A stretch of DNA of 63,248 nt, filler included, from Neolecta irregularis DAH-3 (Eukaryota), in assembly GCA_001929475.1 (NCBI GenBank). It is 7 parts of 7 records of this genome, joined end to end, with 100 filler letters (N's around TTAATTAATTAA, not from the genome) between each part and the next. Parts side by side here need not be neighbours in the genome. Positions count along the whole stretch, not along the records: positions 1 to 30,911 come from LXFE01004103.1; 6 more parts are not named here. One strand, written 5' to 3'. Shown in pieces: positions 4,370 to 57,187 of this stretch (within the stretch, counting starts at the first letter, position 1; each line of letters begins with the position of its first letter). A model generated the notes under the pieces. That model was given only the letters and a program-made list of their open reading frames with translations. It searched no databases and had not been told where the DNA came from. The position numbers were made by a program, and so were the translations under genes.

Positions 4370-7300
4370 TTATTTGTCTTTACTTATAGACATTCCATTT
4401 GTGGGAATGTAGACCCGCGCAAGCAAAATATCGCTCACCGATTCCAAACCAATAATAAAAAGAACAAGCATACTGCTAATGCAAAAATGCGAGATTGTAG
4501 TCCCGATATCCAGCCAGCTTCCCTCGTCTCGGACGAGGTAGAAAAAATTCATCGTTAGTACATCTGAAAATACCAATACGATCATGAACAGCGACGATGG
4601 AGGAATACCGAGCCTTCGAGTCAAGATTCCGAGATTCGCTGAAAGAAGCGCAAAAGGCACCATCAATTTGAAAATCAGTAATGTCCCCATTGCGAAAGGA
4701 TCGAATATAGGTATCAATCGATATACTGAATCAAGCGAGAATGACGACAATGACGCGACATTCCCGGTCCCGAAAAAGGCTTCCTGAATCAGAAAAAAGA
4801 AAAATAACGATATGCTGGCATCTTGGATTTTCAATTGACTTTTCCTCGCCTCTGTAATACTGAAGCTAAATCGAGTTTCCAATTCTACCCATAATACCAC
4901 AAAGACGTTTAGCAGGGCATAAAATATTCCCTCATATGATATCGATAAAATAACAAAGGCGGGCGAAAAAGCGAGGAATATGATAACTATACGATGGAGA
5001 TAGTGATGATTAGGGTGTGGTGTGTGAAGTACCGGGAAGAGTATCGACGAAACTATTCTAATTAGCCAAGAGCTTAAGAAGGCTCACCCAATATAATCCA
5101 TCCCATTATTCTATTGCCTGCCGGCAGCCCCTTTTTCGCTTGTAGCGAACGTAGTGATGATCTTGTAATTACCATGGACAGTACGACGAGAGCTATCTTG
5201 ATGTCAGATACAGTATATTACAAGATTAAAACCTGGATTGTAAGGAGAGTTTTATACTTTTTCAGATTATTGCTTCCTGAAGCAGTTTGCAGGAACTCGG
5301 AACCCAAGAGTAGAAAGGCCACGCCAATTGAAACCATGATTGCACCTCCGAGCAAACTGACTAGTCAGCTAGCTGAACGGCTTAGGGAACAAGTTACACT
5401 AAAGTCTCACTTTCAGCTTTCCCTACAGGAAGTAGGGTGAAAACACTCATGCCAAGACAGCAGGCAGTCCAAGAAGCTAAAAGCAGCCTGTTTTCTCTTC
5501 TAAATTTCGATTTGTAAAGAAAGGTTCTTGCTGCAATTACCACAAAGCATAAACTAAATACTGATCTGTGAAAGTATCCGATAACCTGTGATCATCAATC
5601 ATGTAAAGAGCAAGTGAGAATACCATAGCTTCGAGAAAAATAATAGGTACGACAATATTACGCATCAGTTTCACACAATCCTTCTTGGAATCAATATTTT
5701 TCAGCAAGAACCGCGATCCATCAATCAGAATTCGTCGTTTTGCCCAAACCCTTCCCAAGAACATTACGGGGAAGAATACATAAGCGTAATATACCGATGG
5801 TGAAAGTTTCATGAATAAAACCACATAGAGTATCCCGAGTGTCGAAATGAGAGGAAGTAGGTTCTATACATGAGAAGTGAGAGGAGCGATATATCATACT
5901 GCCTGTTCTTGAGCCCTAGTGTTCAGGACATATGTTTCCAATACATTGACAAGAGCATAGCCAATCCAACCGATATACCCTGCTGTAATGATGAATTGTA
6001 AAAATACTCGGTCATAGCTGACAAGTCAGTGATATGCAGCAGATAGAATGATGCGTTTGAAGATAACGAAGCCCCTTTAGTCCAAGATCCACTAATTCGA
6101 GACTCTGTTCGATAGATTTATCAAACTCTTCGTTTAACATGAGGGTTTTGATCGTTCGAATTCGAGAGTCTGGGGAATTATCTTTGGCCCCAGCGAATGC
6201 TTCGAATGGTCTAAAAGCGATCTCGCTTGCCCGTTTTTCTGTTTCTTTAACTAGATACTGTTCAATGATTTGCTTTGCATTAGCCAAAGCTGCTCGACTT
6301 TTGACTTCTTTCGAAGCGGCGAGGAAATCTAGTGGTATCTGTCCAACGGAATTCGCAGGTATGTTGATTCCAGCAAGATAACTCTATAGAAACTCAGCAA
6401 CAGTAAGTAGAACAAGATACCATCAATGGAGCAATGTCAGCTTGATTAACATCCACTCTTTTAACTTCGTTCAATGACCAATCACTTGAAAATGCATCAT
6501 GCCCAGTTATTGAGTATTTATCTGGCCGTGCAACACCTGAACCCCAGGCGATGATGGGTGTACGAGTATTGTCCGGATGACCATCCCCATGGCTGCCCCA
6601 ATCGCTCATCCCATGGTCAGCTGTGAAAACAAATGCAGTATCATCGTCTCCATAAAACCGATTTACCATACTGACAAGATTCCGGACCCCCTCGTCTACT
6701 ACTTTAATTCCTCGTAGATATTCTTTAGAATACGGGCGATGCGCATGGCCTGCTGTATCTAGCCCAAGGAGATGGAGAAAAAAGACGGTTTGATTTTGTC
6801 GAAGAGATGCATCAAGGGGTTTGTCCACGGTAGCCTTGCGAAATAAGTTGGCGACTTGATCAAAGACCCAAGTATCGAGTTTTGTGGCATCTAGGCTTGT
6901 CAAGCACTGATTATTTTCACGCTCGTACCTTCAGTGAAATCCTCAGCTTCTTCTCCATACGAAAAAGTGTCGACTCGTGTTATATCAGAGGCTCCATGAG
7001 CGAACATGGGCAAAATGTCTGGGGAACCAAATGACCATGTATGCCGACTTTGATTGAAAACAGAATCAAAGTTCACAGGATTCATTTTCCATCCTGAGAA
7101 TTACCACTAGTCACTTGGGAATATACCTTTTGTCACAGCACTTACATCTTCGTAGAAGCCGGCGATAATAGCGACGTGTCCTGGTCGAGATTCAGTTGGT
7201 ACACGGGTGTGCGAAACACCAAAGGTCCCATTGTTCAGAACAATCGAGCGCAGAAATGGTGCCAAATGTCTCCTTTCACCGGTGTCTGGATCATTGTGTT

Positions 7301-17516: not shown

Positions 17517-17741
17517 CGTAAGTGATCATACAGATCGGAGATGTTAGTGGCCGCTTGCGGAAACCAAAACCACGTGGGGAATGGTTGCTATCGAAGATAA
17601 GTGATCTGTTCTATCAACAATATTCAAATGGTGTTTTATGTATGGCCAATGCAATTTGTGTCTTTGTGATGATGTAACGACTAATATGTGCCTGCGGATC
17701 TGGTATGAACCTTAGTCCGCCACTTCGTCTTTTTTAGGACA

Positions 17742-19939
17742 ATGTCTCCCGCTCACGATCACTTTCAGCATATCGAGCGACAGCAGAAAAAGAAACGGAA
17801 TCGCGCAGCAGTATCGTGTGTTCGTAAGCAGAACCCCTTTATTAGAACGTTGGACTTGTAACACAATAGCATGTCGAAACCGGAAAATCAAATGCAGTCG
17901 TCAGCAGCCTTGCGAGTCTTGCACAGGCAGAGGGCATCCAGATGAATGCATATTCAAGAAAACAGATTCGGCGGCAGAGGTTACTCGCGACGACATTAAC
18001 ATCATTTTGTTGAAGCGGGTCGAAAATTTGGAGGGTCTGCTGAGAGTCATATACAAACAAAATCCCCCTCAATCCAATTTCCCCCCGGTTCCACAGCAAT
18101 GTTTCGGAGACCAACCCAACACTACAACTACAGAGACTCCAACCAATGACGAACCCGGAAACCTGGAAGTTACGCTAGGATTATTGGCGGTGCACGAAGA
18201 GCGATCGCACTATTTGGGTCCGACCTCGGCAATGGCAATTTTCACAGAAATCGAGTCTTTGAAAGAAGTTATTAAACAGTCAGAGAAAGTTTCTCCCAGC
18301 ACGTGTGCATCTGACGATTACAGCGAAGAAAAATCTCCAGACGACATTGCAAACTCCATGCTCCTTGCGCCATTATTTAATCAAACTAAACCAGACAAAA
18401 GCTTTCTTCTCTTGCTTATTCCCCCTCGCGAGGATACAGATGCTATAGTCCAGCATTTTATGCAATATCTTCAACCGTTGTTCCATTTGTTGCATACCCC
18501 AACGTTCATGCAAGAATATGCCCACTTTTGGCAGAATATGGATGCGTCCTTCGAATGGCTCAGTCTCTTTTTCAGTGTAATGATTCTTGGAACTCACTGT
18601 CTCCCTGAACGGTCCCCGGTTTTCTTGTCACTCAGCAGTCGGGAAGACCTCATTGAGAGATTTTACAAGGCTACCGAAAGTGCGTTGATCATGTCAAAAT
18701 ATCTGGTTAAGGCTACGATGACCACAATCCAGACCCTTTTACTCATATTCATTGCAAATGAAACCAGGGCCGCTGCGAAACAGAATTGGGCCTTGTTGGG
18801 CGCTGTACTTCGTTTGTCACAGCAGATCGGACTACATCGAGATCCAAGTCTTTTCAACCTACCGCTCCTTGAATCCGAAATGCGTCGACGTACATGGGCC
18901 TCTGTACTATTATTTAATCGATGGTGTGCCTCTCGCACAGGTGTTCTTCTTGATATCTCAGAAACAATGAGCGATACTCGTCTTCCTATGGATCTCAATG
19001 ACACGGATCTGATATCAGGAATACCAATATGCCAGTCCAAATCAACTGATATGAGTTTGTTGCTTGCAAGGGATAGGGTTAGTGTTAAATTGCATCATCT
19101 ACTTTCCGAAGCTTTCGCGATCAAACCTCCACCTTATTTACGAGTCCTTGAAATGGACGATGAGATCCGAGCTGAAGTTCGAACCCTACCGCATTGTTAT
19201 CTCTTTAAGCCTGCGAGCGACCAAGATCAGTCGAGCGTCGTAGTTCTTACCAAGTATGAAATTGAGGCCTTGTGCAACGGAACAATTCTCTTTATTCATA
19301 GACCTTATGCCGTTCGCTCTCGGACACACCCAGAATATATACCTAGTCGACACCGTTGTCACCAAGCTGCTCAATCTCTGCTTAAACTTTTTATTGATTT
19401 CGAAACGAAAATTGCTATATATGAAAACTATCGCTGGTTTATTGAGACATGGTACCGAGTTTATCATTTCCATGGTACTGTCAACTTTTACTGAATGTCT
19501 AACCTATCAAGCTGCTCTAGTTGTGGCTCTTAGTCTTGTCTGGTATCCGAACTCGCCCAACGCCACTGAACTTCGGAATGATCTTTATGCAAGTCTGAAG
19601 ATGTTTAATAAACCATGTTTCAAGTGCGAATGGCATCGCAAAGGTTTCGCAATTCTGCTCGTCTTGTGTCAACGCGGCGGTGTCGATTTCCACCTTAGCG
19701 AAGAAGACTCGCCTCCAAGTGATTCCAAGACCAGAGATATGCCTAGTCTAAGAACAGTTGCGAAAAGTGCTGAAATTGCTGCTAATGCAGATTATCTACA
19801 ACATGGTTCGTTCTCGAGAGGAGACCCTCTACAGACCGATATGATTCAAGGGTTTGATTGGCAGAATTGGGATACTATGATGCAAAGCTTGGATGCATCA
19901 CTTGGAGTTGGGTTTACCGATGGAATGTCTTCTTTTTGA
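17742..19939 (+). CDS. Zn(II)2Cys6 fungal-specific transcription factor
   Basis: RNRAAVSCVPCRNRKIKCSRQQPCESC..C after splicing; IGLHRDP, EMRRRTW middle domain. Confidence 0.92.
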
Positions 19940-20631: not shown

Positions 20632-22168
20632 ATGAAAGAAATCTTGACACTGCAATTTGGACAAGCCGCCGGGTTTCTTGGCGCACATTTCTGGAACCAA
20701 CAAGAAAGCCTGTTTTCCTGCGACGAGAACAATGAATCTCCAATTGATTCAGATGTGCACTTCAGAGCTGGAATTGGAGCTGGAGGCATAGAAACATTCA
20801 CACCGCGAGTATTGATATACGATGTAAAAGGTATGCTCATCTTTATTGGGCCATTAGACTGATTTCCTCGACGAGGCGGATTTGGATCTCTTCATCAGAA
20901 TGCTCTTTACGAATCATTAACTCCAGAAATTAATCATGCAGCTTGGTGGGCGCTTTCATCACTTAATAGCGCTGATCTTCAGGGACAGAGAGATTCAGGA
21001 ACAAAAGCAACCGGTTATCGAAACCGAATATGAGAAAATATTAAGAAATGTTTAATTCGCCTTCAAAAGTCAGTCAGTTTACTCCTTAGGAAGTAACTGA
21101 CAGCAACCAACAAACTGTTCCCGTACTATCGAAAGTGGAAACGTGGAACGACTTCAACCGCGTCTATTACCATCCTCGCAGCTTTGTTGAAATCACCGAA
21201 TATGATCTCTACGGCGAACTAGCCGTTCTAAACACGTATGACCAGGGCGCAGATTTGTTCCAGTCGCTGAATAGGGTGCGAGTCATTGATTGAGAATTTT
21301 CCTGATCGTCTGTAGGAATACGATTTATTTGATCATGATCTCCGAAGTTTTCTTGAAGAATGTGATTCTTTACAGGGAATCCAGGTCTTATGCAGTGTTA
21401 TGGATGGCTGGGCCGGGTTTTCAAGTGAGTATCTCATCGAGTTGCGAGATGAATTTCCCAAAACTAGCCTGATATCTTGGGCTATTGAAAACCCCATGAA
21501 TGACTGGGTAAACCATGCCTCCATGCTATATCTTAATCAAGAATAGGAATCTAGCCATTCGTTCATTAGAGCATTGGTTTCGCTTAATGAAACCTCCTCA
21601 TTATATGTGCCATTGGGTATGCCTGCAATACAGAAGGCGGGGTATGATGCCAATTCCCTATGGAATAGATCAGCAGTACTATCACTCGGATATGATTCAA
21701 TTACGCTCCCTACTCGTCTCAAAGCTTCTCAGAGATCTTCGATAAGCGAAATTATTGAATATTTTTCCCCCTCATCACAGCAACGAATTGCTATGCTCAA
21801 TTTGGAGATTGAAAACCATTCATCCGTGATAAATCTTTCTTGGTCTGATCGTACGCCTAAATTATATTCTGTTTTCAGTGTTGCACGGAGCCAATCTCCT
21901 ACAAACACCTATAAGTACGTATTCTATGTTCCATCTCAACCAACGTATCAGTTACCATATTGACATTCCCTACAAGCTATTGTCGAGTTTTCCTTCGTCC
22001 CTTGCAGAAGATTCTATGACAAGACCAAACGCTTATCTCTCGGTTGGAACTACACCTATTCAGAAAATGGAATATTTAGTAGAGTTAGCCCGACGCAAGA
22101 CTTTTGGAATCAAAAGAGAGGAACTTGTCGACCGTCTCGAGTCAATAAAAGAAGCGTATGAATCGTAG
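20632..22168 (+). CDS. DML1: Misato/Dml1 tubulin-like protein, multi-exon
   Basis: [59 protein letters not shown]. Confidence 0.92.
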
Positions 22169-22305
22169 AACATTCCCATTTAATTCATTCACCCGATTTC
22201 GTATACATATTAAGACTAAAGAGAATCCCCCTAATGTTCTTCAAATTCCGAGTAATAAATATTCTTTTTATGGCCGACTACGAAGTAGTCGGAAAAACAA
22301 CCTCA

Positions 22306-23487
22306 TTACCGAAAAACTTCTCTTGCAAGCTTTGAAGCACTCTTAATATTAAAAGTTTTCGAGTTCCATCGAAGCAAATCGAAGAAGTCTCTAGATGTAG
22401 GGAAAACAGCAATTCGTTCCACGATCTTGATATATTCTGGCAACTGAAAATCAGTCAAGCCGCCGTTGGGATCATTACATCCACAGGAGAATTCTTTACG
22501 AAAACTCCCGCCTTGTCTATGTTATCGTATAAGATCATCATCATCGTCAGAGAGAACAAAACTAAACTCTCGATCTCAGACGGTGGCATGCACCTCCTTA
22601 TTGTCGGACGATCGGAATTCTCATTACTATTCCCGATTTGCGTAAAGACGGTATAACCACTGTGAATCATGGCAAGGACTGTGGTAATTCGGGTTTCTAT
22701 TCGACCTTCAGAAGAACGCACAAAGGCTGTACAGAGACCATTCGCCATGCTTGTCGATTAGCTGGGACATTCTGCAAGCTGTCTTACGGAGATCGATGTG
22801 CGATAAATTGCGATAGCTTATCTGTTCTCTGAAACTCATCGTGGGGAATGTCTTTCTGCGACCTTCAGCCAGCGAACTACGACAGTCATTATCATACCAA
22901 TAAATTCAAGCGCAACATTCTTCTATATATGGCCAATATATTTTGCATCTCTGGCTTGCGTAGCTGTGTCGTTAGCACTGCAATTACTGTAGCTAACTTT
23001 TATCAAATCGAATTTCAGTGCATCATAACATCCTTTCCCGATTTCAAAATGTAATGAATGTCGCTCGTAGCTATTCCATGGTAGATCTACAACGGAATCG
23101 AACGTGCCACAGATTGCTGCATCTATCTAATTAGTCAGCAAACTACAACGAGCAAATACTTAATTGCTCAGAAAACTCGTAATAATGCTTTAGAAGCTGT
23201 ATTGCAGGTTCGATATCCTTTCTAGCATTTTCTGAATCACAAGGAAGGCCTGATGCTATGGCTGTACGAATAGCCTCTCCAGAAACTCCAAAAGTCTCTG
23301 CAGTTGCGAGAATCTCGTCTTCCCAGATCCGAATTAGTTGAAACTCGGGTGCAGGTGTGAGATGCTTGATTGCTATCAAGATCAGCATTTTTCCATGAAA
23401 CCACCAACTTCTTTCGTCGATATAGGCTCCTTCTAATTTGGAGATCCTGAAATTCTTCTGGTCGTTTTTTGAGACATTAATGCCCAT
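22306..23487 (-). CDS. FAM49/CYRI (CYFIP-related Rac1 interactor, DUF1394) homologue, divergent copy
   Basis: Spliced: MGINVSK..AIRTAI..LKHYYEFSEQL..ALKFDLIKLRKPEMQNILAIYRRML..MILYDNIDKAGVFVKNSPVD..LLRWNSKTFN; collinear with animal FAM49 motifs. Confidence 0.82.
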
Positions 23488-24223
23488 TCGACCTATCCAC
23501 ACAGCAGGATGTTTGAACGCTGACGACAGAACAGATTGGCTGTGATGTGGAATACCGCGCTCAGAGGTTCCTTTGGTGCAAGGCAAGTCCTTCATATAGA
23601 TGCTATGGCCCCCGAAACGTGATAAGTCTGGAGAGCAATGATACGAGTAGGCTCCTACTTAAATTAGCCCCGTTCGTCTCAGTTCAAAGGAAACAAAATT
23701 ACGAGTGCGCGAACCACAAATCTCTAGATTTGGCGATTGCAAAGCTGGATCTCATTCTCCTTCCATGCTCCATTCCCCTCTATTGAACAAGTAAGACGCA
23801 TTTGAGAGTTCGATATCCCTGATGGAGGGGTTATCGATGACAAATCCGGGTGCTGTCCAAGCAATATCATCAGACTTGTAAGTAACCCATATCTGCTTGC
23901 AGTATAGTCCTGAAACCTCATTAATGCAAGGAGTGTACTAGTGAATGCAAATAATAGTTGCGAATTCCAAACAAATAGAAAATAGAAAGCCCCTATGTTT
24001 CATATCTCAAACCAAGACTCTGGGTGAATAACTCATTGATAAAACCAACCCTGATGCAAATGCAAGTTTCTTTGTATATTCCAAGACAATATCGTACGGC
24101 GAGACCCGGGTAAAACAAAAGAATTAAACAAATTTTAGAAAATTCCAAACCCAAACTGAAAAAGAATGAACTCCTCATGACGTTGCCACCCAAGAAGAAC
24201 ACAGTAGGGATAGTCTTTTACAT

Positions 24224-25448
24224 TCATCGATTGAACCCGGCTTTAATCGTCTTTGATGTTGATTCGTCATTCAGATGTTTTGAGTTGTATTTGACAACCA
24301 ACGCCAGCTCATCTCCCTCCGGCTTTTCGGTTAACTCATTTATCAATTTAAGATAGTGCCGGACCTGCATGGACAGTTAGTGCTGTTACACGAGTGATAA
24401 CGCACGTTTATTGGAGCATGTTTAGAGAATGAACCATCAGTGTCAATGTGGTCGTACAGTACAATGAAGCCAGTAAGTGCACGTAAAACTATGCTACTGA
24501 GTTCCGCAGGTCTCTAGTTAGACTGATGTTTGTCAGTTGAATGCATACACTGGCTTCGCAAGTAACGCAAATGCACCATCAATGAATGACAACATTGTAA
24601 GCGAGAGTGTGTCCAAGTTGGGTTGGGGAGGTGCATCCTTGATGCTGACTATGCTGTCTCGTAATGTTTCAAGCATTCTATAGGTTATTCGGATATATGT
24701 AATGACGTACGGGTAACGACGACCGATAAACATAGATAGCTGGTTGGCCGAGTCATGGCTATGGGCTAAGAGCGAGTCCTATGTCTTTAACGTAGATAGC
24801 AGCGGGAAAATACCAAGGGAAAGTCACTGCTCCGACTAATTGCTCGTCTATAAAATGATAAATCGTTCTGCATACTCGGTGTTTTTATCTGGAATTGAGT
24901 CAGGAATCCGGGTGATAGATATACCTTAGTACAATCAAATCGAATTGCATCTGCGACCATTCTCCCTACTTCGTACTGTATATTATGTCGTTCGTGATTA
25001 TCCTTAGGCAATGCTGCAACTTTCAAAAGGGCATCTCGAGCAGCGTCGTCTTGTCAATTAGTTTTTGCATTAGTGATCCATGCATGCTCATTTGCTGACT
25101 AAAGTTATAATATTCCTTCAATTTCTGGACGCAAGGCTCCACGTTTTCCCACGCCGCTTTGAAAGTCTGATCACTTTCGTTCGAAATAGCTTGTCGGATA
25201 AGCTCAGCGCACCCTGTATAACTTTCCAGCGACGAGAGAATTTCAGGGGACCAGTTCCGGATGGTTTGAAACTCTTTGGGCGTTGTGAACAAATTATGCT
25301 CGTCTATTTATACGTCAGAAGCTATACGTCCAGGGGGTGTCGAGAGCGCACTTCGAACATCGTAACTTTCCAGATGAACCGCAAAACTCTCGGCACCGGG
25401 CCTTAGAGACGGCCTGCGATTGAAGATTTGCGATATTACAGCACCCAT
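24224..25448 (-). CDS. FAM49/CYRI homologue, more conserved copy
   Basis: Spliced: MGAVISQ..ILSSLESYTGCAELIRQAIS..AWENVEPCVQKLKEYYNFSQ..IRFDCTKIKTPSMQNDLSFYRRAISR..VKYNSKHLNDESTSKTIK; matches FAM49 motifs QNDFSYYRR and YTTKHLNDETTSK. Confidence 0.9.
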
Positions 25449-25744
25449 TGGAAATGAATGACGAAGAATGAAAGACAAGGCAGGACGAATAATGGAGTTT
25501 GGAGGTTGGGTTTGCGGCTGTTTGCGCCGAATATCAAATGGGTTCGTAAGACTCAGGTCTGATTGTTTGTCGGTGCTTAGTCTAATCATCGTCCAATTGC
25601 ATTTGGTTTAGGAGAAGATATTAGATTTAATCGGAAAGACATGGAAGTGAATAATATCGATAGGTCAATATGGACACCAAAGTCAGTTTACACTAACGAT
25701 AACTTTAACATGGTCGCACGAGGCAAGAAAACCGGCAGACACCA

Positions 25745-26635
25745 TTACTTCCTGCCAGGTCGGAATATGCCGAATATACCTCCAGAGTTGGGCTTTTGCT
25801 GAGGTCGATTATCTATGATATATATACGCCTTTTCAGCTCTGATATCAAGTCAGTTCTCATCCACCAGCGGCAAGAAATACCTGGCACGTCGACGAAGAG
25901 ATATTGATATTGGAGGTTGCCTTCAGAATCCTTGACTGTTAGTTATAAAGTCCTTCAGTCTGTGAAGAGCTACTTGAACCATATCAAGATTGGCAATTCC
26001 AGAAGTTAGTTCTCCTTCAACGTGGTATCTCATGAGAAGATGTTCGCGGTTGGCCTTGTCTAAGGTCTTCTGAGTTCTATACATAAGTTTCATATAAGAT
26101 CCTGATATATAATACGCGAGTGGTCGATTCTTCTGCCAACGTGAGCGGGTTGCTTCCCCGTGCGCAGACAGATCTGATCCAAGTAGAATAAGCACCTATA
26201 AATCAGCGCTAATATCAACAGTTCCTTGATACCTCGGGATGCTTCCTAATAAGATCAAAGGACTTGTTATAAAGGCGCGTTTCACTAGATGGCAACAGCA
26301 CATAGGTAGTGAATGCATATGCAACAACCCCCTTGAAAAATTAACATTAGGACATTTTGTGTTGGTAGAAGACTCACAAACACACCAAGACCAAGCATAA
26401 TGACAGCAGCATTGCTTCCATAACTTCCGGTGCGAATAGCTTTCTGTTTAGTCGTGAGATTATCCCATTTCTGATAAGCCGGGTCAATATTAGACGTAGG
26501 CGCATGTGTTTTTATGGAGCCAATGGTTGGCCTATCTGTAGATGTGTGTAATCTTTTCGGGCTTACTTTTGTCGTACTAGCACATATTTTACATAGCGAT
26601 TTAGCTATCTCGCTACTGTTCGGTCGCAAAGTCAT
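25745..26635 (-). CDS. TIM21: Mitochondrial import inner membrane translocase subunit Tim21
   Basis: WDNLTTKQKAIR plus TM segment, AHGEATRSRW..NRP, EHLLMRYHVEG, YQYLFVDVP. Confidence 0.85.
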
Positions 26636-37784: not shown

Positions 37785-40607
<2,823 letters not shown>

Positions 40608-41262: not shown

Positions 41263-42659
41263 TTATGACTTCATATAAGCAACACAGATTTCTTGTTCGA
41301 CATAAAAAGCAATGATTTCCCCATTGGACACCCTTTCTTTGGCCATATCCAATAACTCGGAATTCTTTTCGATAATTTTGGTCGGTGTGGTGACAACAGT
41401 TTCAATAGAATCTTCTTCATCTGGCAATGCTTCGAAAGCAGTGCGGCTACTGCTCTGACAACTTCTTGAGAGCCTAACTGAGCGTGGCTGTTGTAGAACA
41501 GTCAAATACGAAGGAGTCGGTGATTCGGGGTATGTTGACTGTGGTGGAAATGTCAGTGTTGATGCGTAAGATTCCCTTTGTAATATTTTCTCACATGTTG
41601 AACTTGTAGAAAAAGTATTTTCCTTGGAAACAAGTCTATCATTAGCAACACAGAAGTAGCGCCTGTTCGTACGTTTTTCCTGTAATTGAGTCCGAGGTGC
41701 TCCTTCCAGACCTTTTCCATAATCTGTCAAGACCGATAAATGAGGTCCACATTGTGTAATAGCTTAGGGCATCCTTGCCTGTTCCAAAGAAGGTAAAGCA
41801 AATGAATCCGGCAAGGACAGGCACATAATATCCAAACGGTACCTTATAGTTCGTAGTTCCATATATTTTGTTCCATGCATCATTATGGATTTGTGACCAG
41901 GAGTAGGGAACACGGGGACCCCTCATGATATCGATAGAGTTTATTACTGAAAGCGGGATATAAACGAAAATGACGCAGATTGACAAAAGCAGAAGACGGG
42001 CGAACCGAGCTTGTGATATTCCAGTTCTAGAGCGGGTGAGTAGGCGGGCAAACGTAACTCTTCGTCGGACAATGTAAAATACAACGATAACTACACATTA
42101 TTTGTCTACCTTGGCATGAACATGGAATACCGGCATAAATCGCACAAATGAGTATCCAGAATGGTGGCCACATATTTTGAAGAACAACCGTTACCCAAGT
42201 CGGAGCATTGACGAATGCACACCCTAAAGTTCCATAGATCATGAATCGGAATGGTTGAACAATATAATGTGTACCCATAGCAAATAAAGACGGTCCAAAA
42301 CACATCATTGTGTCCACCCAAATTCGTCTAGAACGAGCTTCATAGGTTATAAATGACTCTTTCGGGGATAGAATGTCTGCGAGATATCGGAGCAGTGCTG
42401 CTGTTGACGATGGAATCCCAACTTCTGCGCCAATTATGAGTTTAGTTGTAATATCGCAAAGAATTGCTCCATCCCAGGAATTTGAGGTATCTCCATTCCA
42501 CCAGATGATTGAATTGATAAAATATACTAAATTGGAAATACCAATCCAGAATATCAGTCCAAGAATAGGGACGTTGAAGTTCTTAAAATGAAATATTGCT
42601 GGGACTGAGATGAAAAGAAGCGACAGGCCGCAGAGGGTTGTATAAACTGGCTGACCCAT
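41263..42659 (-). CDS. STE3: STE3/Map3-type lipopeptide pheromone receptor (7TM GPCR)
   Basis: INSIIW..WDGAILCDITTKLIIG, HYIVQPFRF..GC, ARFARL, PYSWSQIH..W, FTFFGTGKDA..Y; two introns. Confidence 0.95.
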
Positions 42660-42925
42660 CTGTGTTTTACTTTTCGTGAATGGGTGTTGCAGCTCTTCTT
42701 ATTACTACGGAGACAAAGCATCCTGTTCGAAGGCAGAGATTATTGAGAGTCCAGTTAGGTTTAGTGTGTTGCTTGGACGAGTAAAATTTTAATAGTACGA
42801 CAGTATTGCGAAACGATCAAGGTAGAAAATTGCCTCTTTGGGGATGAAATAGACCTACGCGTCACCCTTCGTTCAAACTTACCCTCATTGAGCAGAGATA
42901 TCTGCACTCAGGATTTGTTGCATTT

Positions 42926-45990: not shown

Positions 45991-47407
45991 ATGCAAACCC
46001 GATGTACCTTTAGTACACTTCCAAAAACTATATCTCAAGTGATTTCCTCGTCGGGTTCGTCAGTTGTAAAAACAAATGGCTGGATCCGCTCTATTCGCCG
46101 GAAAAAGACCGTTGCCTTTGCGGATTTGGTTGACGGCACTACGTCAGAACCCCTTCAGATACTCTTATCTCAAAATGAAGCAAACCAGTATTATTATATT
46201 AGCATAATGCTGTCAGGATTAATCGACAAATAGATTATCGAATGGATGCAGTGTGGAACTTACAGGAGAACTGAAGAAATCCGAAGGAAAACTCTCAAGA
46301 CTTGAATTTCATCCTATAAATCTAAAGATACTAGGTTCCTCCAACGCTGAAGTGATATTTTCTTTCCCCTGCCTTTCTAATTAAAAGACATATCCAATGC
46401 AAAAGAAGTACCATACGGCTGGTTATTTACGCCAGCAAGCTCATTTACGCTCTCGAACTTCCTTATTTTCCATCATCCTTCGATTACGATCAAAGATAAC
46501 CACTCAGCTGCATTCTTTCTTCTCGTCAAATAATTTCATCCATACTCACCCCCCTGTGATCACGTCATCAGACTGTGAAGGTGCAGGCGAAACATTCGGT
46601 ATAAGGCCAGAAAACTTTTTCAGCACATCGGCGAATCTCTCGGTATCGTGTCAGCTACATCTCGAAGCACTTTCAATGGGAGTCAATAGAGTATGGAGTC
46701 TAAACCCGACATTTCGAGCCGAAGGGAGTGTTACCTCCCGACACTTGGCTGAATTTTGGATGTTAGAGGCAGAAATGTCTTTTATTGAAAATTTAGAGAC
46801 AGTCATGAGTTTAGTTGAAGGCTTAATCAAAAATGTTACAGGGAAGTTGATTGAAGATGAAGCTTGGAAAGAATTTGAAAGTGTTAAAGGAAGAGAGAAT
46901 GGAACTATTGTTGATACCCGCGATCATTGGATGAGACTAATGGGTGAATGGAAGCGAATATCGTATGCTGATGCCATCGAAATCCTGCGTTCTTCAAGTG
47001 AATCATTCCAATTTGAGCCAGCTTGGGGATTATCACTTCACTCAGAACATGAAAAATATTTAGCAACGAACGGTCCAATATTTATCACTGACTATCCTCG
47101 AAGCTTAAAACCATTTTACATGCTAGCTTCATCATCTACAACAGTTGCGGGTTTTGATCTCCTCTTTCCTACAATAGGGGAGCTAGCCGGAGGATCACTT
47201 CGTGAACATTCATACGAACGTCTAGAACAAAGGATGAAAGAAGACGGAATAGATATTCCGTGGTATCTTGAACTTCGAAAATGGGGCACTGTACCCCGTG
47301 GGGGGTTTGGAGTTGGTTTCGAACGTTTGCTGATGTTTCTCGTGGCTCAAGAAAATGTTCGAGATGTTATTAGTTTTCCTAGATGGAGGGGAAACTGCCG
47401 ATTTTGA
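45991..47407 (+). CDS. SLM5: Asparagine--tRNA ligase, mitochondrial
   Basis: NGWIRSIR, TSSDCEGAGETF, PTFRAE..SRHLAEFWMLEAE, WYLELRKWG..GFGVGFER; start codon uncertain. Confidence 0.93.
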
Positions 47408-55117: not shown

Positions 55118-57187
55118 TTAGCTTTCCCTCTGTAAAAATTCCCAGGCTCGTTTTCTCACATCAAATAAACTGCCTATATCCCGTCCGCCTCTCATGATCC
55201 GAAAAAGCTTAAACGCATTTCCATTGGTTCTAACTTCCCTTCCTATTCTTCCATCTTCCTCGAGCATCAATCCTTCAAGCATAGTTGGACTCCGTACATC
55301 TTTCAGAGTCTTGATATTTCCATGAGTAAGTTCACTTGAGGGTCCAGTGGGGCACTCGAATGTCAGCAGGCCTCGGTCATCTACTGCGATTAACCGAACA
55401 TTTTTAGTCACTGAAAACGAGGATCGAAATTTTCCAGCTTCAGAGGCAAATCCGCGATTATAAGTCCAGATATCACCAATTTGGAGATATCCATGTTCAA
55501 ACATTTGGGACATCCGGATCTGGACTTGTTCGCCTGCTAGTGCTCTGCTTGGTGGCACCGACTTCTTCTTCACAGGATTTATCTGCCTAGACGTCGGTTT
55601 GCCATTATATAAAACTTTGATTCGCTTTATAGGCATCGCAATAGTTTCGTTTGGTATTATTGCTAGTGGTCTCACGCGCTTTTCAGCACTTTGTTTAATC
55701 GAAATGATGGTAGAGTTAGGAACTTTAGAATCATTTGTCTCAATCGTTTTCCGGTATTTCTTTGCCTCTTTTGCCTTTTGCTCATAATCTGTTGACATTT
55801 TCCCAGTTTTTAGATCAGTCTGGAGATTAGTGCAATGCTCTTGGAAGGCCTTATTGTTGAAGAGCATTGGCTTTATATCATATCCGAAATCGCGCTTATC
55901 AAAGGAAGGAAGAAGCGCTAGGCAATCTCTCTTCTCAGAATGAGATAACATATCCCAACATTGCTGAGATATCAGAGTCTCTGAATTAGGAATCGGTTTT
56001 TCAAGGAGAGACATACGTCCAGCTTGGCGGTCGCAACTGGACTCTCCGGATTGGAAAGAAGTGTATCCACAGTCCATTTGGAGTCAATTTTCCGCCGTTT
56101 GTAATTCCTTTCAATCACTGGTGGTGGCGATGCCCTTCGCTTATCTTGAGAAGAAGTTTCGCTTATGGCATCATCATCAATTTTCATTAATCCCATGGCG
56201 TTTGTGGCACGTCTTCGACTTATTCGAGTATTTGGATCTATGCCATCCATAACTCTGATTTCTGGTGTTTCGAACTGACTTAGCGAGGAAGCCGATGGAA
56301 TAGGAGACTTCTCGTATTTTTGATTAGGTCTGGGTGATAGGCATGTTGACTCTCGAAAACATTGTTGGAATTCATCCATTGTGGCACGCCCAGAGTTGTG
56401 TCTTTGATGGCTATGAATGTCGGCTATATATGGATTTAAATAACGTGGCGGATGAAAGGTTGTAACTTTTGGAAAATCCGTATCATCGCTAATTAATGAG
56501 CGACTAATCACGATCAAATAGAGCTTGTACGTTTCTGAATCGCTATTTTCGTTGGTAAATGGCACTTGAATAAGAATAGGGGGCTTTGTTGTGGAAGTGA
56601 CTCGGCATTCCATCTTGACATCAGGGGAGACCGGCATACTTGGATTTCTCCGTAGTTAGTCAAACCTACAATTCAACGCAGGGCAAACCTAAATATATGT
56701 TGTTGTGTGATTGATTCTCGAGGAACAACAATTGGCACCGTGTATCTGGAAAGTTCATGAGTTTTCGTATTTGATACATTGTTATTTCTTCCGTTTTCAT
56801 GACCAAAACTTGGTGAAAGTCCAAAAACTTCCCCGAGAGATATAAACACGTTTCTGGAATTAGAGGCAATAGAGCGATTCTGGAAAATTAGTATTTTGTG
56901 GAAAGGAATGATTATGATACGGAACATGAAGATCTATTGGAATGCGGTAGTATAGCTATTGGATCCTCCTTCACTTCCAAAGCACGTCTAGTTTCCATCG
57001 AGCATACCTGATCACAACCTAACCCTGCATTATCACCTATGGAAGACAGTCTTTCAAGAGCGGAATCTTGTCTCCGAGCAGGTTGCGAGGTGGAACTCGA
57101 TGTTCCGGAAATATTTGATGCGAGATTCTCCTGCACGTCTACAACCATGGAAAAGATGTCGAAAGGTTCGTCTTCGTCCGTGGACAT
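55118..57187 (-). CDS. ASX-homology (DEUBAD) domain protein with C-terminal RAMA-like domain; 5' exons uncertain
   Basis: LLSNPESPVATAKL..CWDMLSHSEKRDCLALLP..FQEHCTNLQTDLKTG; C-terminus GYLQIGD..SPT..NGNAFKLFR..GSLFDVR. Confidence 0.7.

What the first reader, a model, noticed from the sequence alone, without database searches (positions are those of the whole stretch)
22306..25448. Two tandem FAM49/CYRI (Rac1 inhibitor) genes in an ascomycete-like genome
Seen: two adjacent same-strand multi-exon genes align end to end with animal/Dictyostelium CYRI. Both begin Met-Gly (N-myristoylation-type start) and both keep the Pro..YRR motif (KTPSMQNDLSFYRR and RKPEMQNILAIYRR). Established: CYRI binds active Rac1 through this Arg pair and limits Scar/WAVE-driven actin protrusion; WAVE is associated with crawling cells such as chytrid zoospores and is regarded as lost in Dikarya, and the model yeasts lack CYRI. 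Inference: this walled fungus retains either a WAVE-independent Rac-buffering module (e.g. for polarity or NOX signalling) or an unrecognised WAVE/CYFIP system.
Basis: partly seen in the sequence, partly recalled or inferred. Interest (0 to 1): 0.85.

Follow-up and report, generated by a model that had tools for sequence, protein, structure and literature searches.

The report
Two tandem CYRI genes in Neolecta
The ascomycete fungus Neolecta irregularis carries two neighbouring, intron-bearing genes for CYRI, a protein that in animals and amoebae damps Rac signalling, and it is the only member of the "higher" fungi found to have the gene in this limited survey.

Summary
Window 22306-25448, minus strand, holds two head-to-tail CYRI/FAM49 genes (Pfam PF07159). 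Gene A spans 25448-24224 (8 exons, 318 aa). Gene B spans 23487-22306 (7 exons, 319 aa). The window is Neolecta irregularis DAH-3, and GenBank already names the products "Protein FAM49" and "Protein FAM49B", although both deposited models have faults.

A and B are each other's closest relatives. They share 33% identity and at least 4 of 6 intron positions, so they arose by an old DNA-level tandem duplication. B evolves much faster.

Both keep the MGxxxS start, Pro150 and the Arg160/Arg161 pair. A matches CYRI-B at 9 of 13 Rac1-interface residues and B at 8 of 13. B's predicted fold matches CYRI-B (TM 0.85).

A spliced environmental transcript of a gene-A orthologue shows expression, confirms 6 of 7 splice junctions and the Met-Gly start, and gives dN/dS 0.13.

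All 13 other fungal CYRIs I could name are non-Dikarya. Monophyly with them is not rejected (AU p 0.19). The literature reports WAVE as lost in Dikarya and Mucoromycotina, so a WAVE-independent Rac buffer is the likelier reading. Rac and WAVE-complex genes could not be searched because no genome was held.

The parts
24224..25448 (-). Gene A (CYRI paralogue A), 318 aa. Exons: 25448-25352, 25303-25088, 25049-24925, 24888-24814, 24778-24711, 24677-24549, 24511-24406, 24364-24224 (stop TGA at 24226-24224).
   Evidence: Splice junctions were found by frame-consistent GT/GC-AG search, and the assembled ORF is. Six of 7 junctions read identically in the spliced orthologue contig L001. PF07159 hits fall on 4 exon pieces.
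22306..23487 (-). Gene B (CYRI paralogue B, fast-evolving), 319 aa. Exons: 23487-23409, 23372-23160, 23122-22998, 22963-22898, 22855-22788, 22749-22479, 22443-22306 (stop TAA at 22308-22306).
   Evidence: Junctions are. The model is identical to residues 37-355 of NCBI P0004 'Protein FAM49B'. PF07159 hits fall on 2 pieces. PDB CYRI-B matches at E 1.1e-16. The AlphaFold2 model has pLDDT 81.8 and matches 7ajl with TM 0.85.
25443..25448 (-). Gene A start, ATG-GGT (Met-Gly); N-terminus MGAVIS, an N-myristoylation-type MGxxxS.
   Evidence: In the orthologue transcript the upstream frame has a stop and no ATG before this Met, plus two 1-nt indels relative to the window. Met1 and Gly2 are at least 90% conserved in the 84-row family alignment.
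23482..23487 (-). Gene B proposed start, ATG-GGC (Met-Gly); N-terminus MGINVS.
   Evidence: This Met-Gly aligns with the family's near-invariant Met1-Gly2. The 36-residue upstream extension in the NCBI model is predicted disordered, with pLDDT below 50. There is no transcript evidence for B.
24844..24885 (-). Gene A Rac-contact motif KTPSMQNDLSFYRR (equivalents of CYRI-B P150, Q153, N154, S157, R160, R161); RR codons at 24849-24844.
   Evidence: residue roles are from passages of PMC7955166.
22919..22960 (-). Gene B Rac-contact motif RKPEMQNILAIYRR (P150, Q153, N154, R160 and R161 kept; S157 is Ala); RR codons at 22924-22919.
25050..25087 (-). Gene A intron 2, a 38-nt GC-AG intron (the only non-GT donor among the 13 introns).
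   Evidence: The junction QQM|NDAAR is confirmed by the orthologue transcript and is used in both deposited models.
22584..22640 (-). Gene B in-frame stretch (QIGNSNENSDRPTIRRCMP) at the place where gene A has intron 6. There is no GT donor here, so it is read as coding, and intron 6 is absent from B.
   Evidence: The stretch aligns to a CYRI-B loop/helix region and forms a low-confidence loop in the model (block pLDDT 59).
23488..24223 (-). A-B intergenic spacer of 736 bp. It holds the gene-A 3' UTR (at least 260 nt, about 88% identical to the orthologue transcript) and presumably the gene-B promoter.
   Evidence: alignment of the L001 3' end to the window. The promoter is an inference only.

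Best explanation
These are two functional, tandemly duplicated genes for CYRI (CYFIP-related Rac interactor, FAM49, Pfam PF07159) in Neolecta irregularis. They are most likely inherited vertically from the ancestral fungal CYRI and kept in the Neolecta lineage, while the other Dikarya I could name appear to have lost the gene.

Proposed mechanism (inferred by homology, not shown here): each protein is N-myristoylated on Gly2 and so sits on membranes. Its N-terminal helical bundle binds the switch-I face of GTP-bound Rac through the conserved R64 / P150-Q153-N154-S157 / R160-R161 / N185-S188 surface. This sequesters active Rac locally and limits what Rac can activate.

WAVE is reported lost in Dikarya, and also in Mucoromycotina, whose relatives still carry CYRI. 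The Rac outputs being buffered in Neolecta are therefore more probably fungal Rac effectors, such as the NoxR/NADPH-oxidase complex (NOX is retained in Neolecta) and hyphal-polarity effectors, than a WAVE complex.

Gene A is the conservative copy, under purifying selection and with an expressed orthologue. Gene B is a fast-evolving copy that keeps the fold and the Arg pair but has altered interface residues (S157A, N185D, L189Q). It probably has weaker or shifted binding, or a regulatory role.
For: Shown:
- PF07159 hits on 6 of 10 ORF pieces.
- CYRI-B structures matched at E 6.6e-32 (gene-A orthologue) and 1.1e-16 (gene B).
- Gene-B AlphaFold2 model has pLDDT 81.8 and pTM 0.81. Its top Foldseek hits are CYRI-B (7ajl, TM 0.85, rmsd 3.1 A), followed by CYFIP1 of the WAVE complex.
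- Of the 13 Rac1-interface residues named in PMC7955166, A is identical at 9 and B at 8, and both keep P150, Q153, N154, R160 and R161.
- A keeps 16 of 16 and B 13 of 16 of the family's invariant or near-invariant columns.
- MGxxxS N-termini occur as in 13 of the 16 other MG-starting homologues tabulated.
- L001, a 1321-nt contig, carries an uninterrupted 304-codon ORF that is 92% identical to A with homologous 5' and 3' flanks. It is therefore a spliced transcript of an orthologue, and it has an in-frame stop upstream of the Met-Gly.
- dN/dS between A and L001 is 0.13 (dS 0.28, 305 codons).
- A and B are sisters, with support 100/100 in a 48-row IQ-TREE tree and 99 in a 128-row FastTree tree.
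- Four of B's 6 introns fall in the same alignment column and phase as introns of A. The other 2 have the same phase within 10 columns.
- The region's GC is 0.428 against 0.414 for the window.
- Neighbouring genes are fungal: a Zn2Cys6 transcription factor, STE3, MCM3 and others.
- Holding Neolecta together with the 16-row fungal CYRI clade is not rejected (AU p 0.186, delta lnL 4.7).

From the literature (passages read):
- WAVE lost in Dikarya (10.1101/2020.06.12.142943).
- WAVE lost in Dikarya and Mucoromycotina (PMC3298513).
- NOX present in Neolecta (PMC5309816).
Against: - No Rac, NoxR or WAVE-complex gene of Neolecta could be looked for, so the partner and the absence of WAVE are both assumed.
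- Rac is lost in fission and budding yeasts (recalled, not from a call), and Neolecta's Rac status is unknown here.
- The free ML trees do not place the Neolecta pair inside the fungal clade. It sits on a long stem (1.06 + 0.59 substitutions per site) near Anaeramoeba and unnamed metagenome sequences.
- Vertical descent needs several independent losses in Dikarya.
- There is no expression evidence for gene B or for this strain.
- The one orthologue transcript uses an acceptor 42 nt further on at intron 7, which removes 14 conserved residues.
- S157A reduced Rac1 binding in CYRI-B pull-downs, and B carries Ala at that position.
- 'No other Dikarya' rests on 21 organism-named hits out of 30 looked up, from 150 listed of 415 hits. 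It is not an exhaustive survey.
Confidence: 0.6

Rival explanations
1. Horizontal acquisition: a CYRI gene entered the Neolecta lineage from a non-fungal eukaryote (or an early-diverging fungus) after Dikarya had lost theirs, and then duplicated in tandem.
For: In both trees the Neolecta clade falls outside the well-supported fungal CYRI clade (100/98) and lies nearest to Anaeramoeba and unnamed metagenome rows. No other Dikarya appear among the named hits. The best non-Neolecta identity is only 34-37%.
Against: - The AU test does not reject fungal monophyly (p 0.186).
- The placement is a classic long-branch position with weak local support (84/49).
- There is no candidate donor.
- Both copies carry 6-7 spliceosomal introns of 33-48 nt, mostly with CTAAC/CTGAC-like branch motifs, and the region's GC is like its surroundings.
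- The gene is present in a second Neolecta-like lineage at dS 0.28.
Confidence: 0.1
2. The genes are part of a retained, so far unrecognised Scar/WAVE regulatory system in Neolecta, where CYRI competes with a Neolecta CYFIP for Rac as it does in animals and Dictyostelium.
For: In the species surveyed by Fort et al., CYRI is described as co-evolving with Scar/WAVE (legend of Supplementary Fig. 1B, read). The surveys that declared WAVE lost in Dikarya do not mention Neolecta: there are 0 occurrences in the Prostak preprint and in Merenyi 2023, and Kollmar 2012 predates the genome.
Against: WAVE is reported lost already in Mucoromycotina or 'after Blastocladiomycota'. Yet CYRI is present in 4 Mucoromycota and 4 Zoopagomycota species named here, so CYRI does not predict WAVE in fungi. 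The Neolecta genome paper's main text has no mention of WAVE, FAM49 or actin.
Confidence: 0.08
3. Gene B (and possibly both genes) no longer acts on Rac. B would be a decaying or neofunctionalised duplicate whose CYRI fold now serves another partner, for example another Rho-family GTPase or dimerisation with A.
For: B's terminal branch is 2.22 against 0.013 for A, plus 0.34 for the branch A shares with its orthologue. B differs from the family consensus at 3 of 16 near-invariant columns. It carries S157A, N185D and L189Q at the interface. No transcript or orthologue was found for B.
Against: The ORF is intact across 7 exons with all 6 introns bounded GT-AG. The fold prediction is confident and CYRI-like. 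R64, P150, Q153, N154, R160, R161, S188 and A192 are kept, as is the MGxxxS start. Ramicandelaber also has Ala at position 157.
Confidence: 0.2
4. Artefact: contaminating non-fungal DNA, or a mis-assembly, in the Neolecta assembly.
For: The assembly presumably comes from field-collected material (recalled, not checked in a call), and the genes have no close Dikarya relatives.
Against: The pair is embedded in a 63-kb stretch with fungal-specific genes on both sides: Zn2Cys6/Fungal_trans at 17716-19491, STE3 at 42030-42698, and MCM3, PIG-N and mitochondrial ribosomal proteins. The GC matches the surroundings. An independent environmental contig carries the orthologue with homologous UTRs.
Confidence: 0.02

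Closest known systems
Vertebrate CYRI-B / CYRI-A (FAM49B/A); structures 6yjj, 7ajl, 7ajk (complex with Rac1 Q61L)
   Same: - Single-domain protein of about 320 aa with a PF07159 match over the whole length.
- L-shaped all-helical fold (B model against 7ajl, TM 0.85).
- Gly2 start.
- P150, Q153, N154, R160 and R161 conserved in both copies, plus S157, N185 and S188 in A.
   Different: - Only 24-28% identity.
- The host is a walled, non-motile ascomycete in a clade reported to lack the Scar/WAVE complex that CYRI opposes in animals.
- B has S157A, N185D and L189Q.
- Binding to Rac is untested.
Uncharacterised CYRI homologues of non-Dikarya fungi (e.g. Radiomyces, Cokeromyces, Mortierella, Calcarisporiella, Dimargaris, Neoconidiobolus, Ramicandelaber, Spiromyces, Gonapodya, Obelidium, Chytriomyces, Caulochytrium, Blastocladiella)
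   Same: - Same family and length, and an MGxxxS start in most.
- The same interface residues.
- Also found in walled, and partly non-flagellated, fungi.
- Monophyly with the Neolecta pair is not rejected.
   Different: - These form a tight clade (100/98) from which the Neolecta pair is separated by a long stem.
- Identity is 24-30%.
- They appeared as single rows per species in my sample, whereas Neolecta has a diverged tandem pair.
- None belongs to the Dikarya.
DUF1394 domain of CYFIP1/Sra1 in the WAVE regulatory complex (3p8c, 4n78, 7usc-7use)
   Same: Homologous helical domain carrying the Rac 'A-site' arginine. It is the second-best group of structural matches to the B model (E 4e-4 to 1e-3).
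   Different: CYFIP is about 1250 aa and is a subunit of a five-protein complex, without Gly2 myristoylation. The Neolecta proteins are stand-alone, CYRI-sized proteins.
Rozella allomycis CYRI (noted in Fort et al., legend of Supplementary Fig. 1B)
   Same: A CYRI recognised in the fungal lineage.
   Different: It is reported to lack the N-terminal myristoylation site, whereas both Neolecta copies keep it. Rozella is an early-diverging, wall-less endoparasite, not a dikaryan.

Membership tests
CYRI / FAM49 (Pfam PF07159, CYRIA/CYRIB Rac1-binding domain) | Significant match to the PF07159 profile over the domain | tested here: met
   Six of 10 exon-level ORF pieces hit PF07159 (E 6e-16 to 4.5e-5, each at least 23.1 bits), colinear over profile positions 21-301. 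The deposited products P0001, P0002 and P0004 carry precomputed PF07159.18.
CYRI / FAM49 | Stand-alone protein of about 320 aa (not the ~1250-aa CYFIP architecture) | tested here: met
   The spliced models are 318 aa (A) and 319 aa (B). Family hits are mostly 300-330 aa.
CYRI / FAM49 | Two-bundle all-alpha CYRI fold | tested here: met
   For B: AlphaFold2 gives pLDDT 81.8 and pTM 0.81, all helical, and Foldseek's top hits are 7ajl (TMt 0.85) and 6yjj. For A: inferred from the E 6.6e-32 alignment of its orthologue to 6yjj over residues 47-300; no model was made.
CYRI / FAM49 | Rac1-contact residues (R160/R161 pair, P150, Q153, S157 and others, as defined in PMC7955166) | tested here: met
   A is identical at 9 of 13 and B at 8 of 13. 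Both keep R64, P150, Q153, N154, R160, R161 and S188. B has Ala at position 157 (residue list).
CYRI / FAM49 | N-terminal Met-Gly (Gly2 myristoylation site) | tested here: met
   The sequence motif MGxxxS is present in both. For A the start codon is supported by an upstream in-frame stop in the orthologue transcript. For B it is supported only by alignment to the family N-terminus. Lipidation itself is not testable here.
CYRI / FAM49 | Direct, GTP-dependent binding to Rac | not testable with these tools
CYRI-Scar/WAVE antagonism module | Presence of Rac and of the CYFIP-Nap1-Abi-WAVE-Brk1 complex in the same genome | not tested
The literature reports WAVE lost in Dikarya, but those texts do not mention Neolecta.

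The most novel reading that the evidence does not exclude
Neolecta has kept more than CYRI. On this reading it retains a working Rac-CYRI-CYFIP/WAVE circuit, so Scar/WAVE was not lost once at the base of Dikarya. This 'living-fossil' ascomycete would then use WAVE-driven branched actin, for example in an unobserved wall-less, engulfing or host-invading stage of its uncultured life cycle, with the diverged paralogue B tuning it.
Probability: 0.07. Interest if true: 0.85.

Novelty: new member of a known kind. Interest (0 to 1): 0.42.

Why it matters
CYRI is understood only as the brake on Rac-to-Scar/WAVE signalling in crawling and engulfing cells, and it was described as co-evolving with that complex.

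Here a conserved, selected CYRI, apparently expressed to judge from an orthologue transcript, sits in a walled, non-motile ascomycete. The same searches show CYRI across Mucoromycota and Zoopagomycota, groups reported to lack WAVE. Together these point to an ancestral WAVE-independent job for CYRI, most plausibly buffering Rac for NADPH-oxidase and hyphal-polarity outputs.

The finding also adds a concrete case to the 'delayed, lineage-by-lineage loss of protist-type genes' picture of fungal evolution, and marks Neolecta as the dikaryan exception.

Two things limit the practical value. Neolecta is not culturable, so the function would be tested more easily in Mucor or Mortierella. And the genes are already named in GenBank.

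Tried and rejected
- Whole-genome search for PF07159, Rac and WAVE subunits: no genome is held for this window.
- RNA evidence from public runs: no RNA holder was listed.
- Word-based homologue search with the A orthologue returned only 3 proteins: two Neolecta and Radiomyces. The exhaustive HMMER search was needed to see the family.
- ESM Atlas look-alike search with P0002: no usable hit.
- A-B heterodimer prediction, prompted by the CYRI-A/B dimers in PMC7955166: verdict 'no answer', score 0.00. This is not evidence either way.
- Literature searches for CYRI, FAM49 or DUF1394 in Neolecta, Dikarya or fungi. Only the Fort et al. preprint touches fungi, in a figure legend mentioning Rozella. 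One search was badly framed and uninformative. The search for Neolecta with Rac/NoxR terms listed no paper holding 'Neolecta' among the 15 shown.
- I considered a canonical intron in gene B at the place of A's intron 6. It was rejected because there is no GT donor, and the only candidates were GC-AG with poor context.
- I considered whether the NCBI N-terminal extensions are real. For A this was rejected. For B it is doubtful.
Full report
**What is there**

Both features lie on the minus strand. Reading stop-to-stop ORFs across 21800-26000 shows the two quoted motifs and two Met-Gly starts. The coordinates were verified. Gene A's ATG-GGT is at 25448-25443 and its motif KTPSMQNDLSFYRR at 24885-24844. 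Gene B's ATG-GGC is at 23487-23482, its motif RKPEMQNILAIYRR at 22960-22919, and its stop ends at 22306.

Six of the 10 ORF pieces I submitted hit Pfam PF07159 (CYRIA/CYRIB Rac1-binding domain). E-values ran from 6e-16 to 4.5e-5, each at or above the curated cut-off, and the hits run in order along the profile. Four pieces gave no PF07159 hit.

**Gene models**

Junctions were found by a frame-consistent GT/GC-AG search between flanking peptides, then assembled and checked.

- Gene A has 8 exons: 25448-25352, 25303-25088, 25049-24925, 24888-24814, 24778-24711, 24677-24549, 24511-24406, 24364-24224. The product is 318 aa.
- Gene B has 7 exons: 23487-23409, 23372-23160, 23122-22998, 22963-22898, 22855-22788, 22749-22479, 22443-22306. 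The product is 319 aa.
- The 13 introns are only 33-48 nt long. Twelve are GT-AG and one, intron 2 of A, is GC-AG.

**Whose genome**

A word-based search with exon 2 of A returned NCBI 'Protein FAM49 [Neolecta irregularis DAH-3]' (P0001) and an unnamed JGI protein (P0002). The long exon of B returned 'Protein FAM49B [Neolecta irregularis DAH-3]' (P0004). My B model is letter-for-letter residues 37-355 of P0004, and the first 60 residues of my A model are contained in P0001. The window is therefore N. irregularis, in the Ascomycota, Taphrinomycotina.

The genes are already named in GenBank, but the deposited models have faults. P0001 starts 47 codons upstream and skips exon 7. P0004 starts 36 codons upstream.

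**Transcript evidence**

A scan of the metagenome collection with P0002 returned one 1321-nt contig, L001. Its 304-codon ORF is uninterrupted. Its 5' and 3' flanks align to the window on either side of gene A. The simplest reading is a spliced mRNA of an orthologue from a close relative; this is an inference.

- It reads through 6 of my 7 junctions exactly as modelled.
- At intron 7 it uses an acceptor 42 nt further downstream. This removes 14 residues (VRHYLKLINELTEK) that are conserved in the family and match the Pfam profile.
- Upstream of its Met-Gly the frame holds a stop and no ATG, and it differs from the window by two 1-nt indels. Met-Gly is therefore the real start of A.
- Nei-Gojobori dN/dS between A and L001 is 0.133 (dS 0.282, dN 0.037, 305 codons), which indicates purifying selection.
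- No RNA run was listed for the window itself, and I found nothing on expression of B.

**Family membership and the Rac surface**

Against PDB sequences, P0002 matches CYRI-B 6yjj at E 6.6e-32 and P0004 matches 7ajl at E 1.1e-16.

An AlphaFold2 model of P0004, built with an 84-row alignment, has mean pLDDT 81.8 and pTM 0.81. It is all-helical, and the 36-residue NCBI extension is disordered. Foldseek's best PDB matches are CYRI-B (7ajl, TM 0.85, rmsd 3.1 A; then 6yjj), followed by CYFIP1 in WAVE-complex structures.

Passages of Yelland et al. (PMC7955166) name the CYRI-B residues at the Rac1 interface: R64, Q68, M147, P150, Q153, N154, S157, R160, R161, N185, S188, L189, A192. I anchored the numbering on a mammalian CYRI-B row, which reproduced exactly those residue identities. 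On that numbering:

- A is identical at 9 of 13. The differences are Q68S, M147I, L189M and A192G. The first three are also seen in other family members.
- B is identical at 8 of 13. The differences are Q68A, M147L, S157A, N185D and L189Q.

S157A lowered binding in that paper's pull-downs, so B may bind more weakly.

Of the 16 invariant or at-least-90%-conserved columns of the 84-row alignment, A keeps 16 and B keeps 13. Both begin MGxxxS, as do 13 of the 16 other MG-starting homologues tabulated.

**Origin of the pair**

A and B are 33% identical (95 of 288 aligned positions). They are sisters in both trees: support 99 in a 128-row FastTree tree, and 100/100 in a 48-row IQ-TREE LG+C20 tree. 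For the FastTree run I kept only listed hits of 270-460 aa, plus the window models, P0002 and P0003. B's end branch is 2.22 against 0.013 for A.

Four of B's 6 introns fall in the same alignment column and phase as introns of A. The other two share the phase and lie within 10 columns, in poorly aligned stretches. A's intron 6 has no counterpart in B. This is an old DNA-level tandem duplication, not a retrocopy.

**Distribution**

HMMER against 1.84 billion representatives gave 415 hits at E <= 1e-3, of which 150 were listed. The best non-Neolecta identities were 34-37%.

I looked up 30 of the listed hits, and 21 carried an organism name. Twelve of these are fungi: Gonapodya, Obelidium, Chytriomyces, Caulochytrium, Blastocladiella, Cokeromyces, Mortierella, Calcarisporiella, Dimargaris, Neoconidiobolus, Spiromyces and Ramicandelaber. 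Radiomyces makes 13. All are non-Dikarya. The other nine are animals, Pygsuia, Diphylleia, Anaeramoeba (two hits) and a Cochliopodium-like cluster.

The 16-row fungal clade is well supported (100/98) and is sister to animal CYRIs. The Neolecta trio sits outside it on a long stem. An AU test does not reject holding Neolecta with the fungal clade (delta lnL 4.72, p 0.186). Vertical retention is therefore compatible with the data but is not demonstrated. The survey of Dikarya is not exhaustive.

**Genomic setting**

The region's GC is 0.428 against 0.414 for the window. Flanking ORFs encode:

- a Zn2Cys6/Fungal_trans factor (17716-19491);
- a Tubulin_3 (Misato-like) piece (21547-21960);
- mitochondrial ribosomal L32 and S21;
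- MCM3, a class II aminoacyl-tRNA synthetase, PIG-N and an MFS transporter;
- a STE3 pheromone receptor.

Contamination is therefore very unlikely.

**How it probably works**

The steps that are shown are family membership, the fold (for B), the conserved interface and start motif, selection on A, and expression of an orthologue of A. The steps that are inferred are Gly2 myristoylation, GTP-Rac binding and sequestration, and the identity of the buffered outputs.

[quoted passage not shown] They also state that Dikarya and Mucoromycotina lost WAVE (Kollmar et al. 2012), and they list WAVE among families lost in fungi (Merenyi et al. 2023). None of these texts mentions Neolecta.

CYRI persists in Mucoromycota and Zoopagomycota. 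Its presence therefore does not imply WAVE, and a WAVE-independent role is the more economical reading.

The Neolecta genome paper says NADPH oxidases are retained in Neolecta and lost in the yeasts (PMC5309816). In filamentous fungi Rac activates NOX through NoxR. This is established knowledge, and one search lists abstracts saying as much. NOX and hyphal-polarity effectors are thus the likeliest outputs. That paper's main text has no mention of FAM49, WAVE or actin.

**What is in print**

In the held library, only Fort et al. touches fungi in connection with CYRI. That is a supplementary-figure legend noting a Rozella CYRI without the myristoylation site, and 'co-evolution' of Arp2/3, Scar/WAVE and CYRI.

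Searches for Neolecta+CYRI, FAM49+fungi (20 papers) and DUF1394 (22 papers, 20 listed) found nothing on dikaryan or hyphal CYRI. Supplements were closed and might contain per-species tables.

**Verdict**

The pair is a new, divergent, duplicated member of a known family. It is already labelled in GenBank but apparently undiscussed. It is phylogenetically unusual, being the only Dikarya lineage seen here.

The indirect evidence leans towards a WAVE-independent Rac buffer. Interest is moderate.

Noticed in passing
window 24224-25607 and 22306-23595 (minus strand): Both GenBank models are imperfect. P0001 (gene A) starts 47 codons upstream of the Met-Gly and skips exon 7 (24511-24406). P0004 (gene B) starts 36 codons upstream. 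The orthologue transcript contradicts the A extension.
   Followed up: yes
window 24365-24405 and about 24323-24364; L001 950-965: The orthologue transcript L001 joins exon 7 to an acceptor 42 nt downstream of the one that keeps the conserved helix. This deletes 14 residues. It could be an alternative 3' splice site, a species difference or a minor isoform.
   Followed up: partly
window 22306-25448: All 13 introns are very short (33-48 nt). Most have a CTAAC/CTGAC/CTAAT-like branch motif 8-15 nt before the AG. One (A intron 2, 25087-25050) is GC-AG.
   Followed up: partly
window about 23965-24223; L001 1056-1321: The 3' UTR of gene A is about 88% identical to the orthologue transcript over some 260 nt with few indels. 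That is at least as conserved as synonymous sites (dS 0.28). It may hold regulatory sequence or the gene-B promoter.
   Followed up: no
proteins P0003, P0084, P0049, P0058, P0042, P0067, P0108, P0133 (not in the window): CYRI homologues with intact MG starts and Rac-contact residues are present in Mucoromycota and Zoopagomycota. The literature says Mucoromycotina lost WAVE. This is an exception to the published CYRI-WAVE 'co-evolution' that seems undiscussed.
   Followed up: partly
proteins P0119, P0143 (metagenome, not in the window): Two unnamed environmental CYRI-like proteins form a tight pair (100/100) on a long branch, close to where the Neolecta clade attaches. Their organism is unknown.
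   Followed up: no
window 42030-42698 (-): ORF piece with a strong STE3 (pheromone a-factor receptor) match, E 1.5e-50. This is a mating-pheromone receptor gene in a fungus whose mating system is little known.
   Followed up: no
window 55121-56083 (-): ORF piece with an ASXH (Asx homology / DEUBAD-type) domain, E 3.4e-11.
   Followed up: no
window 37788-40130 (-), 46385-47404 (+), 4373-5083 (-), 17716-19491 (+): Ordinary neighbours: MCM3-type helicase, class II aminoacyl-tRNA synthetase, PIG-N and a Zn2Cys6 transcription factor. No tRNA genes were found in the window.
   Followed up: partly
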